Shown one piece after another: positions 23,836 to 27,158 of a stretch of 64,000 bases of DNA. The translations under genes and the position numbers were made by a program. Source of the DNA: the human T2T-CHM13v2.0 reference genome, Homo sapiens. Each line of letters opens with the position of its first letter. Position 1 is the stretch's first letter. Below the pieces are notes generated by a model, which had not been told where the DNA came from, searched no databases, and saw nothing but the letters and a program-made list of their open reading frames with translations. The stretch is from the NCBI RefSeq assembly GCF_009914755.1, contig NC_060925.1. One strand, given 5' to 3'.

Positions 23836-24315
<480 letters not shown>

Positions 24316-24867
24316 CTAGGGATAGGAATCAGTGCTTTACTGATAGAAAAACTAAAAACCTGATATACTTGGCAGAGCACACACACAGCAAGGTCTCTAA
24401 CCTAGGTAACTGAGGCCAGACTTGATAGAAAGATATGTAAAAAGCAACAGCACTGTCAAAAAAATGAATGAAATGCCAATCTTTAACCTCAGTCCCTTCA
24501 CCTAGTGAGTAAGAAAAGGAAAAGCAACAGTTACATCTCTTGCCATAGATTCATGTACATCCCATGAAATCAGTAAACTCCCATGCTACATATTAGAATA
24601 TTGCTGAGTTCTGGCTGTTTATTCAGGAAAGTGAAAAATAATAATAAAGAAAAAATATAACCTCTAAATATTGCAGATTGACAGTACGGCCAAGAAAAGA
24701 TAATTTTCTTATATGCTGAAATAAACATCACAATTTATGGCTAAGTAACCAGAACTCTTTTTATAGCAACTTACAACCCAAGGGCACTAAGTGGCTTAAT
24801 TCCTTACTTCCCAGGAGACAAATGGCTTTATGGTCTTATATACAACAAACAAACAGAAATTCAAAAA

Positions 24868-26373
24868 TGGTGAAAAATTAAATTGCTGATGATACCAATT
24901 ATAAAATTATTGTCTATTTCTAGTTTATTAATAAACTTCTTACCCACAGGAAATTGCCTTTTGGCATATATATTAATGGTGAGTATTTTAAATGTTCTCA
25001 AGATAGTGAAGCTTATGGTGGGTTAAATTTAAATAATTTAAAAGATTATGAAAATAGGTATAAAAATTTAAACTAATTGTAAAAAAAGAACCACATAGCC
25101 AAGACTTCCTTATTTTACCAATCATATCAACCTGCTAACAAAGACAGAAAAAAATTTTTATTGCAATATAAGATGCTGCATTTAGACTAGATTTAGAAAT
25201 AATTTCAGATCCCAATTTTACAGTTGTTAAAATATGGAAAAGAAAAGTCTTATAATCAGTGAAAATATGAGTAGTGGCGCTGACTTCCCCTTTTCTTCTG
25301 GGATTGAGTAGAGGAGACTTAGTGGCCCCAAAACAAAGTTTAACTCCTAAATGGTTGAGACGGCTTCCTGAAAACATAGGCTAATTAGGATATGTTTACT
25401 GCTTCATAAAATTGTTTCTAAACCTAGTCTAAATCCAGCATCTCATATTGCAATCAAAAATTTTTCTCTGTCTTTTTTAGCAGGTTGGTATGATTGGCAA
25501 AAATTCTGATGTCTTGGCTATGTGGTTCTTTTCTAGTAAATGCTTTTTTACTAGGTCAGAATTTGTTTAAATTTTTATACCTATTTTCAGAATCTTTTAA
25601 ATTATTTAAATTTAGCCAACCATAAGCTTCATTATCTTGAGAACATTTAAAATACTCATCATTAATCTATATATCAAAAGGCAATTTTCCGTAGGTAAGA
25701 AGTCCATTAATTTAATAAACTAGAAATAGACAATTATTTTATATTCGGTATTATCAGCCATTTAATTTTTCACCAAAGTTAAACTTTGTTTTGGGGCCAT
25801 TAAGGCTCCTCTACTCAATCCCAAAAGAAAAGGGGAAGTTAGTGCTACTAATATTTTCACTGATTTTTTTTTATTATATTTTAAGTTTTAGGGTACATGT
25901 GCACAATGTGCAGGATTGTTACATATGTATACATGTGCCATATTGGTGCGCTGCACCCATTAACCTAATCATTTAGCATTAGGTATATCTCCTAATGCTA
26001 TCCCTCCCCCCTCCCCCCACCCCACAACAGTCCCCGGAGTGTGATGTTCCCCTTCCTGTGTCCATGTGTTCTCATTGTTCAATTCCCACCTATGAGTGAG
26101 AACATGCAGTGTTTGGTTTTTTGTCCTTGCGATAGTTTGCTGAGAATGGTTTCCAGTTTCATTCATGTCCCTACAAAGGACATGAACTCATCATTTTTTA
26201 TGGCTGCATAGTATTCCATGGTGTATATGTGCCATATTTTCTTAATCCAGTCTATCATTGTTGTCTATTGTTGTTGGACATTTGGGTTGGTTCCAAGTCT
26301 TTGCTATTGTATTTTCACTGATTTTAAGACTCTTCCATATTTTCACAACTCTGAAATTGAGATCTGAAAATTG
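24868..26373. repeat. Local inverted, circularly permuted duplication: copy at 24868-25345, source at 25408-26373 (source carries a later L1 insertion)
   Basis: 24868-25205 is the reverse complement of 25408-25775; 25200-25345 is the reverse complement of 25777-25865 plus 26326-26373; about 88-90% identity by eye. Confidence 0.92.
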
Positions 26374-26469
26374 ATGGTGTGTCTTTCACTGGCAACAGTT
26401 TTTCTTCTTAGTGGTACATAAAACAATAGTGTATCTTACAATCAATGGCATGTTGAATTTGATGAAATA
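25851..26469. mobile_element. MER104-like (TcMar-Tc2) non-autonomous DNA transposon, split by the L1PA
   Basis: TATTTTCACTGATTTTAAGAC...TTCTTAGTGGTACATAAAACAATAGTGTATCTTACAATCAATGGC...GATGAAATA with inverted termini; family assignment from memory. Confidence 0.7.
25864..26309 (-). mobile_element. 5'-truncated L1PA 3' end
   Basis: Canonical L1PA 3'UTR (TTAAGTTTTAGGGTACATGTGCACAATGTGCAGG...); TSD TATTTTCACTGATTTT at 25852 and 26310. Confidence 0.93.
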
Positions 26470-27158
26470 TCTCTTCCAAAAGATGTAACAACATCAGAAT
26501 GTAAACTATAGGTAGTAAAAGTAAGAATTCTTGATTATTTGGGCAGTTTTCATCCCTAAGTCACAAAATGTCATTGCCCATATATATATTAAGTTTAGGC
26601 CTCTACCTTTTCTCCATTCTGAGTGTTCTGAGTTAGCAAAAAGCAGCTCATGTTGACTCCCTGCTGGGTCCTGCCTACAGTGATATCTGTAGGATCTTGC
26701 ATCTCCCTTGCACACAGTCATAGCTTTATTCTCAGGGAGGATGGAAGCAATGTAGAGTCATCAGATTTTAGGATGCTGGCCTTGATCAGCTGCTGATCTA
26801 GTGAAAATCTGGTACCTCAGCCACATGCAACTAAATTCTTTACCCCATTGTTGGTTGTCAATACTAGGGTTGGTTGTCAATGTTGGTTGCAAATCTAGCT
26901 AGCCAAGACATACTGCTGAATTCGTGAAGAAAGCCCGGTGTTCCTGTGCTGACCACACTCTCCAAAGGCAACGTGTGAAGAGTGTTTATGTTTTAGCTCA
27001 TCTCTACCTTACTAAGCAATCTACTCAACATGCTCCCCTTTCTCTACAGAAGGCAGGTTTTTCCCATAAATCTAGTTCAGAAGGCCTTTTTTATTTAGAA
27101 GACATACTTAATTCCATAAGCAGGTGAAATTAAATAAAACAAACATTAACAGAGGTTA

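What the first reader, a model, noticed from the sequence alone, without database searches (positions are those of the whole stretch)
24868..26373. Circularly permuted inverted duplication: candidate fossil of a ~500-bp DNA circle re-integrated next to its source
Seen in sequence: the source 25408-26373 (A' = 25408-25775, B' = 25777-26373 without the later L1) is bounded by the same 7-mer AAAATTG (25408-25414 and 26367-26373). About 60 bp upstream lies an inverted copy (24868-25345). A simple inversion would give the order B-A, but the copy reads A-B. The copy's internal A/B junction (reverse complement GATCTG-AAATTA-TTTCTAAA) fuses the source's right end to its left end through that microhomology. 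The copy's two outer ends (...AAAGTTTAACT | TGGTGAAAAATT...) rejoin to give the contiguous source sequence AAAGTTTAACTTTGGTGAAAAATT, missing only 1 nt. AAATGGT occurs at both insertion flanks. The source must be the right-hand segment, because its MER104 continues intact past 26373. Inference: the segment was circularised via microhomology (as known for microDNA/eccDNA), opened at one point and inserted in inverted orientation, or was copied exactly once around a circle. It post-dates MER104 and pre-dates the L1PA, which the copy lacks; divergence is about 10%.
Basis: partly seen in the sequence, partly recalled or inferred. Interest (0 to 1): 0.85.

Follow-up and report, generated by a model that had tools for sequence, protein, structure and literature searches.

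The report
Inverted, circularly permuted 0.5-kb intronic duplication
An old, apparently neutral 478-base copy of neighbouring intron DNA sits upside-down 62 bases from its source with its two halves swapped, the pattern expected if the source was copied once round a closed loop; this kind of event is already described in humans.

Summary
Window 24868-25345 is the reverse complement of 25409-25775 (A, 309/338 identical) followed by that of 25777-25867 plus 26326-26369 (B, 124/135). A simple inversion would give B then A. The copy's outer ends map to 25775 and 25777. Its inner junction fuses the source's two ends, which both carry AAAATTG (chance 0.00035). A and B occur nowhere else in the window or genome. 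The right-hand segment is the donor: an old interspersed repeat runs straight through its right end in 5 of 19 other genomic copies. A later L1 splits the donor; the copy keeps the empty site.

Best reading (0.55): one event copied a closed ~501-base template once round and placed it at a staggered break. A free DNA circle and a loop closed in place during template switching cannot be separated. The 62-base distance and the retained donor favour the second.

Permuted duplications through circular intermediates are published for human segmental duplications and polymorphic insertions. This is therefore a new member of a known kind, unusual in being sub-kilobase, inverted and beside its donor. 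No function is evident. Primate orthologues were not available.

The parts
24865..24871 (+). Left copy of the 7-nt flank repeat AAATGGT. Its last 4 nt (TGGT) are also the first 4 nt of the inserted copy, which makes a 4-nt microhomology with the donor's ACCA at 25772-25775.
   Evidence: Read. A microhomology of 4 nt or more at a random breakpoint has P of about 0.022.
24868..25205 (-). Derived copy, segment A: reverse complement of donor 25409-25775.
   Evidence: 309 of 338 aligned pairs identical.
25200..25205 (.). Inner junction of the copy. The donor's right end (26367-26373) is fused to its left end (25408-25414) through one degraded copy of the 7-mer.
25203..25345 (-). Derived copy, segment B: reverse complement of donor 25777-25867 plus 26326-26369. 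It carries the L1-empty site and a truncated piece of the old repeat.
   Evidence: 124 of 135 identical.
25346..25348 (+). 3-nt filler (CCT) between the copy's end and the right flank repeat.
25349..25355 (+). Right copy of the flank repeat AAATGGT, a likely 7-bp target-site duplication.
   Evidence: The chance of such a shared 7-mer is 0.032.
25346..25407 (+). 62-nt spacer between copy and donor. It is unique sequence and presumed ancestral.
25408..25775 (+). Donor segment A'. It begins with AAAATTG (25408-25414).
25777..25867 (+). Donor segment B', the part before the L1.
25868..26310 (-). Later L1 3'-end fragment of 443 nt, with a T-run at its left end on the + strand. It has a 16-nt target duplication at 25852-25867 and 26310-26325 and is absent from the copy.
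26326..26373 (+). Donor segment B', the part after the L1. It ends with AAAATTG (26367-26373).
25846..26479. Old interspersed repeat, about 176 nt once the L1 and its second 16-nt target-site copy are taken out (the alignment spans 184 columns, gaps included). It runs uninterrupted through the donor's right boundary.
   Evidence: One search listed 40 matches, one of them the query itself. In some searches, 5 of 19 fetched loci align across 26369/26373 and 2 of them also cross the L1-empty site.

Best explanation
This is a neutral structural fossil of one duplication event in a RAB3GAP2 intron.

A stretch of about 508 nt (25408-26373 without the later L1) behaved as a topologically closed unit of about 501 nt. 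Its two ends were joined at the 7-nt direct repeat AAAATTG. One unit-length copy, opened between 25775 and 25777, was laid down in inverted orientation at a staggered break 62 nt upstream. That left three marks: a 7-bp flank repeat (AAATGGT), a 4-nt microhomology (TGGT/ACCA) at one outer junction, and a 3-nt filler (CCT) at the other.

Shown here:
- the permuted anatomy;
- all three junctions at single-nucleotide level;
- that the right-hand segment is the donor;
- that A and B have the same age;
- that the event came after the old repeat and before the L1.

Inferred:
- **The closed template.** It could be a free covalent circle, cut once and joined in. It could instead be a loop closed in place: a 3' end primed on ACCA copies A' leftwards, slips back to the upstream AAAATTG, copies B' and halts 1 nt short of its own starting duplex. 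I cannot separate these two routes. I lean slightly to the in-place route, because the copy lies 62 nt from a donor that was kept.
- **The age.** From JC distance 0.090 between the copies, using recalled primate substitution rates and no tool result, the event is roughly 30-45 million years old.

No function is evident. A by-product is a hairpin of about 340 bp in the pre-mRNA.
For: - **Permuted order and identity:**
- **Outer ends adjacent in the donor,** 1 nt missing.
- **7-nt microhomology at the closing junction,** P = 0.00035 for a random breakpoint pair.
- **One event:** A and B are equally diverged, 29 of 338 against 11 of 135 differences, Fisher p = 1.0.
[quoted passage not shown]
- **Donor polarity:** 5 of 19 copies of the old repeat align straight across 26369/26373, with 30-31 of 40 matches before it (20 of 24 aligned positions in the fifth locus, L012) and 27-35 of 40 after it. 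The left copy carries only the truncated piece, at 92% to the donor against 71-75% among the five family copies that cross the boundary.
- **Order of events:** the L1-empty site is kept in the copy.
- **Published criteria:** two parallel diagonals, donor ends fused inside the derivative, derivative ends adjacent in the donor, only microhomology or short indels at the junctions (PMC7450558 Results and Discussion; PMC7188851 parts 1-3 of 4 of the text).
Against: - No physical circle can be shown from sequence.
- No outgroup was available, so three things are inferred and not seen: the empty site, the original length of the microhomology, and whether AAATGGT is a true target duplication.
- The flank repeat is only moderately unlikely by chance (P = 0.032).
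- A free circle gives no reason to land 62 nt from its donor.
[quoted passage not shown] An inverted case like this one is the exception there.
- The finding was picked out of very many windows because it looks like this, so a rare coincidence among ordinary template-switch events is not negligible.
Confidence: 0.55

Rival explanations
1. Serial template switching (FoSTeS/MMBIR type) on ordinary linear templates. A nascent end leaves at AAATGGT and primes on the opposite strand at ACCA. It copies A', jumps to the upstream AAAATTG, copies B', and returns 7 nt behind its point of departure. The adjacency of the start and stop points is a coincidence.
For: All junctions carry microhomology (4 nt and 7 nt) or a short filler. 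The template lies within 1 kb and is copied inverted. The donor is kept. Chicote et al. note that junction features cannot separate NHEJ from MMBIR/FoSTeS.
Against: The stop at 25777 lies 1 nt from the start at 25775. If the endpoints were independent over a few hundred to a thousand bases, this would be expected in well under 1 in 100 events (my estimate, not a tool result).
Confidence: 0.25
2. A multi-step history. Either the donor was tandemly duplicated, an inverted duplication copied across the tandem junction, and the tandem array then collapsed. Or there were two separate inverted insertions, placed exactly side by side.
For: Takahashi and Innan list tandem duplication plus deletion as the typical false positive for this pattern.
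Against: There is no third partial copy of A or B in the window or the genome. The old repeat shows that the donor's right boundary is ancestral sequence and not a deletion scar. A and B are equally diverged. Both versions still need the unit-length coincidence on top of extra events.
Confidence: 0.07
3. Retro-copy of a circular RNA cut from the RAB3GAP2 intron transcript, inserted by L1 machinery.
For: The copy's + strand is the sense of the RAB3GAP2 transcript. The copy is flanked by a 7-nt repeat next to an A-run.
Against: No AG...GT pair is found in any of the 8 possible junction registers on either strand, and there is no poly(A) at either end of the copy. A retro-copy has no reason to land 62 nt from its source.
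Confidence: 0.03
4. A and B are parts of an interspersed repeat family that naturally occurs in both orders.
For: The last ~66 nt of B belong to an old repeat.
Against: Searches of the whole assembly with the copy and with the spacer plus A' plus the start of B' found only these two loci, 1 candidate region each. The same tool found 69-86% identical copies of the old repeat. The two B segments are 92% alike, against 71-75% among the five family copies that cross the boundary.
Confidence: 0.01

Closest known systems
Circular-DNA-mediated segmental duplication pairs in the human genome (Chicote et al. 2020, PMC7450558; abstract, Results and Discussion read)
   Same: The block order changes from A-B to B-A. 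The donor's ends are fused inside the derivative and the derivative's ends are adjacent in the donor. Junctions show only microhomology or short indels. The donor is retained. The authors also propose a replicative interaction between donor and acceptor.
   Different: Those donors are 22 kb to 3.9 Mb and lie 0.09-58 Mb from the copy or on another chromosome, with closing microhomology of 0-2 nt. Here the unit is about 0.5 kb, lies 62 nt away, is inverted, and closes on 7 nt.
eccDNA-mediated duplications among human segmental duplications (Takahashi and Innan 2020, PMC7188851; parts 1-3 of 4 of the text read)
   Same: The diagnostic is the same: two parallel lines in a dot plot. The same false-positive test applies: no extra flanking copy.
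   Different: They report three cases of about 20-130 kb, drawn from catalogues limited to more than 1 kb. Donor polarity was mostly unresolved there. Here it is resolved by an old repeat that spans the donor's end.
Polymorphic AB->BA insertions in 1000 Genomes long-read data (Zhang et al., bioRxiv 10.64898/2026.09.03.749254; abstract, sections 7 and 29, and term-search passages read)
   Same: Source spans are small (at most 5 kb). The permutation is cyclic, terminal microhomology is enriched, and the source and insertion are strongly biased to the same chromosome.
   Different: [quoted passage not shown] This one is old, apparently fixed and inverted. Their supplementary table of cases could not be opened, so I cannot say how close any of them lies to its source.
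Serial translocation through circular intermediates in cattle (colour sidedness). I know it only as cited and described in PMC7188851 and PMC7450558; the paper itself was not read.
   Same: A permuted copy marks a circular intermediate, with microhomology at the closing junction.
   Different: It is large, interchromosomal, and linked to a phenotype.
microDNA (short extrachromosomal circles). Its properties here are recalled, not from any call.
   Same: Sub-kilobase size and short direct repeats at the ends of the source.
   Different: By recall, microDNA is mostly 200-400 nt and comes from GC-rich, genic 5' regions. This unit is about 501 nt and 28% G+C.

Membership tests
Duplication through a circular intermediate (A-B to B-A class) | The derived copy is a cyclic permutation of the donor (two parallel diagonals). 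| tested here: met
Duplication through a circular intermediate (A-B to B-A class) | The donor's two ends are fused inside the derived copy, with only microhomology or a short indel. | tested here: met
   A 7-nt AAAATTG sits at both donor ends and one copy sits at the junction 25200-25205.
Duplication through a circular intermediate (A-B to B-A class) | The derived copy's outer ends are adjacent in the donor. | tested here: met
   25775 and 25777, with 1 nt missing.
Duplication through a circular intermediate (A-B to B-A class) | No extra flanking partial copy exists, which excludes tandem duplication plus deletion. | tested here: met
   The old repeat is continuous across the donor's end.
Duplication through a circular intermediate (A-B to B-A class) | An empty acceptor site is seen in an outgroup species. 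| not testable with these tools
   No primate genomes are held. The left flank has no paralogue that could stand in.
Duplication through a circular intermediate (A-B to B-A class) | A covalently closed circle existed physically. | not testable with these tools
   Sequence cannot tell a free circle from a loop closed in place.
microDNA (features recalled) | Length about 200-400 nt. | tested here: not met
   The unit is about 501 nt.
microDNA (features recalled) | Origin in GC-rich sequence. | tested here: not met
   28% G+C.
microDNA (features recalled) | Short direct repeats at the ends of the source. | tested here: met
   AAAATTG occurs twice.
FoSTeS/MMBIR complex rearrangement | Junctions with microhomology or short templated or untemplated fillers; nearby template; possible inversion. 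| tested here: met
   4-nt and 7-nt microhomology, a 3-nt filler, and a template within 1 kb. No feature separates this class from the circular one.
Interspersed repeat copy | Many dispersed genomic copies. | tested here: not met
circRNA-derived retro-copy | Junction at canonical splice sites; poly(A) or L1-type insertion marks. | tested here: not met
L1 twin-priming inversion | One part of the insert is inverted relative to the other. | tested here: not met
   Both segments have the same orientation relative to the donor.

The most novel reading that the evidence does not exclude
This could be the visible tip of an unrecognised local mutation class. Sub-kilobase stretches would be closed on themselves at a few bases of direct repeat during replication or break repair. 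They would then be copied exactly once round, leaving inverted, cyclically permuted duplicates within about 100 nt of a retained donor.

Such events fall below the size and identity thresholds of segmental-duplication catalogues, and old ones are absent from polymorphic variant sets. Each event creates a long intronic double-stranded RNA hairpin at a stroke.
Probability: 0.2. Interest if true: 0.6.

Novelty: new member of a known kind. Interest (0 to 1): 0.3.

Why it matters
On its own this is a neutral scar in an intron. Its value is as an unusually clean specimen. All three junctions are readable to the nucleotide, and donor polarity is fixed by an independent marker: an old repeat that runs through the donor's end. 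The size, about 0.5 kb, is far below anything in the segmental-duplication studies. Inversion and the 62-nt distance also set it apart from the published population set, where 79 of 80 cases are in direct orientation.

A genome-wide scan for such small permuted copies could test how they arise. A spike of outer-end gaps at zero would be direct sequence evidence that closed templates are used in the human germline at this scale. It would also help decide between free circles and in-place loops.

A side effect worth a look is the hairpin of about 340 bp that the two copies form in the RAB3GAP2 pre-mRNA.

Tried and rejected
- **A paralogue of the left flank**, which could have served as an empty site, was sought. 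The flank is unique in the genome.
- **Rfam** has nothing inside the finding. Its only matches, at 24000-24219, are weak and look Alu-related (my reading, not tested).
- **The apparent extension of segment A** into the left flank (24850-24867, part of pair I2) is at chance level: 5.5% of random 17-mers of the window score as well.
- **A canonical back-splice origin** is rejected.
- **L1 twin priming** is rejected, because both segments share one orientation.
- **Tandem duplication plus deletion** is rejected.
- **Literature.** Four searches found no report of this locus and no report of a sub-kilobase inverted permuted copy beside its donor. Subscription journals are largely outside that library, and the preprint's supplementary table is closed.
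- **Repeat names.** MER104 and L1PA could not be checked, because no repeat library is held. The L1 piece's nearest genomic copies are 93% identical (39 of 39 non-self matches listed). That fits an insertion younger than the duplication but does not name a subfamily.
- **Cross-species dating** could not be done, because no primate genomes are held.

Full report
**1. The observation**

The region 24600-26700 was read directly and scanned for repeats. The scan returned nine inverted pairs that tile two blocks. Pairwise alignment with the L1 removed by coordinates gives two segments:

- Left 24868-25205 is the reverse complement of 25409-25775 (segment A), 320 of 354 aligned pairs identical by local alignment.
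- Left 25203-25345 is the reverse complement of 25777-25867 plus 26326-26369 (segment B), 124 of 135 identical.

A global realignment gives 309 of 338 for A and 124 of 135 for B. The left block therefore reads rcA then rcB. A plain inversion of A-B would read rcB then rcA.

- AAAATTG sits at 25408-25414 and at 26367-26373.
- The copy's inner junction (25200-25205) holds a single degraded copy of that 7-mer.
- The copy's outer ends correspond to 25775 and 25777, so one base is missing.
- AAATGGT lies at 24865-24871, overlapping the copy's first four bases, and at 25349-25355, after a 3-nt CCT.

The L1 piece is 443 nt (25868-26310) with a 16-nt target duplication. The copy aligns straight through the empty site. 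Sizes are: spacer 62 nt, donor without the L1 508 nt, closed unit 501 nt, copy 478 nt.

**2. More than chance?**

| Feature | Chance estimate | Source |
|---|---|---|
| Microhomology of 7 nt or more at a random breakpoint pair with the same offset in this window | 0.00035 | |
| Microhomology of 4 nt or more | about 0.022 | |
| Shared 7-mer within 8 nt of both ends of a random 478-nt interval | 0.032 | |

The closing junction is therefore clearly non-random, and the flank repeat only moderately so. If the endpoints were independent, outer ends adjacent within 1 nt would be expected in well under 1 in 100 two-segment events. That figure is my estimate and not a tool result.

**3. What the sequence is, and which copy is the donor**

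The assembly that holds the window can be searched. A query with the copy, and a query with the spacer plus A' plus the start of B', each found only this locus, one candidate region each. The left flank is also unique. A sensitive BLAST of each segment against the 64-kb window found no third partial copy. A and the first part of B are thus single-copy DNA and not a repeat family.

The tail of B is different. A query from 26314 to 26700 found 40 matches, 39 besides the query itself, to an old interspersed repeat at 69-86% identity. Against the 19 loci fetched, the repeat spans 25846-26479 once the L1 is taken out. Five of the 19 loci align as one block across the donor's right boundary. In those five, matches before the boundary are 30-31 of 40 in four loci and 20 of 24 aligned positions in the fifth (L012). 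Matches after it are 27-35 of 40. Two of them also continue across the L1-empty site.

This means the B'-to-flank junction on the right is ancestral sequence. The name MER104 could not be checked.

**4. One event, and its place in time**

A and B are equally diverged: 29 of 338 against 11 of 135 differences, Fisher p = 1.0. Pooled divergence is 8.5% and the JC distance is 0.090.

- The copy carries part of the old repeat at 92% identity to the donor, against 71-75% among the five family copies that cross the boundary. The event therefore post-dates the repeat.
- The copy has the L1-empty site, so the event pre-dates the L1.
- The L1's nearest genomic relatives are 93% identical (39 of 39 non-self matches listed).

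With recalled primate substitution rates, 0.045 substitutions per site per lineage suggests roughly 30-45 million years. This is an inference and needs orthologues.

**5. Explanations excluded**

- **Interspersed repeat in natural order:** excluded.
- **Tandem duplication of the donor followed by deletion.** This is the typical false positive named by Takahashi and Innan. It is excluded because there is no extra flanking copy and the donor's right boundary is not a deletion scar.
- **Back-spliced circular RNA copied back into DNA:** there is no AG...GT in any of the eight junction registers on either strand and no poly(A) at either end.
- **L1 twin priming:** both segments share one orientation.
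- **Known RNA family:** Rfam has nothing inside the finding.

**6. How it most likely arose**

The product is what a single pass round a closed template of about 501 nt gives. Two physical routes fit.

- **Route A, free circle.** A copy of the segment is circularised at the 7-nt direct repeat and cut once between 25775 and 25777. It is then joined into a staggered break, using TGGT/ACCA at one end and leaving a 3-nt filler at the other.
- **Route B, loop closed in place.** A 3' end ending in AAATGGT, at a stalled fork or a break, anneals by TGGT to ACCA (25772-25775) on the opposite template and copies A' leftwards. Its end (the complement of AAAATTG) slips back to the upstream AAAATTG and copies B' leftwards. 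It halts at 25777 on meeting the duplex it began with, then returns 7 nt behind its departure point.

Route B needs no free circle. It explains the inversion, the 62-nt distance, the retained donor and the 1-nt shortfall together. Route A gives no reason for landing next to the donor. Neither route can be shown from sequence. I give the closed-template reading as a whole 0.55 and lean slightly to Route B within it.

The main rival is serial template switching on linear templates with chance adjacency, which I put at 0.25. It gains some weight because this locus was selected from many windows for looking this way.

**7. Comparison with what is known**

The signature is published in three human data sets.

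- **Chicote et al.** (PMC7450558; abstract, Results and Discussion read) describe 24 human segmental-duplication cluster pairs with the A-B to B-A change. Sixteen have resolved polarity. Donors are 22 kb to 3.9 Mb and lie at least 0.09 Mb away, with 0-2 nt of closing microhomology. The authors discuss a replicative interaction with the acceptor.
- **Takahashi and Innan** (PMC7188851; parts 1-3 of 4 of the text read) report three cases of about 20-130 kb.
- **A 2026 preprint** (10.64898/2026.09.03.749254; abstract, sections 7 and 29, and term-search passages read) reports 82 polymorphic AB->BA insertions with source spans of at most 5 kb.

All three cite or echo the cattle case, which I know only through them.

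The present locus meets every sequence criterion of this class that I could test. It differs in being about 0.5 kb, inverted, 62 nt from its donor, closed on 7 nt, and old. Against microDNA, whose features I recall and did not retrieve, the flanking direct repeats fit, but the length (about 501 nt) and the 28% G+C do not.

**8. Function**

None is evident. There are no annotated elements here in the hub's table and no RNA family.

The two copies would fold the RAB3GAP2 pre-mRNA into a long hairpin. The minus strand of 24860-25800 folds at -445 kcal/mol, against -174 ± 8 for 20 shuffles (z = -34). Whether this hairpin forms or is edited in cells is untested.

**9. Verdict**

This is a new member of a known kind with an unusual geometry. 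Its interest is modest unless a genome-wide scan shows that it belongs to a class.

Noticed in passing
window 25531-25558 (donor) against 25070-25105 (copy): The donor holds a small perfect palindrome with 8-nt arms and a 6-nt loop. The copy lacks it through two nearby indels of 14 and 8 nt. This looks like a short template-switch mutation cluster in one copy after the duplication. Which copy changed needs an outgroup.
   Followed up: partly
window 24868-25775, minus strand (RAB3GAP2 pre-mRNA): The two A arms fold into a hairpin of about 340 bp that is about 91% paired (-445 kcal/mol, z = -34 against 20 shuffles). The B arms would pair across it as a pseudoknot. It is a possible ADAR substrate that is not built from Alu elements; this is untested.
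   Followed up: partly
window 25846-26479: An old interspersed repeat of about 176 nt once the L1 and its second 16-nt target-site copy are removed, with 39 other genomic matches listed at 69-86% identity. Most matches cover only its last ~85 nt (26385-26470).
   Followed up: partly
window 25868-26310: The L1 3'-end fragment on the minus strand is about 11 nt longer than its nearest relatives: 443 nt against 429-433 nt in all 39 listed non-self matches, each 93% identical. A small internal duplication near 26260-26280 looks like the cause.
   Followed up: no
window 25372-25397: A short imperfect palindrome lies in the spacer between copy and donor (26 nt, 85% self-complementary).
   Followed up: no
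window 24000-24219: Weak SRP-RNA and mir-1268/3135/1285 matches, all below their gathering scores. They fall within the stretch the hub lists as masked repeat (23929-24257) and look Alu-related to me, which I did not test.
   Followed up: no
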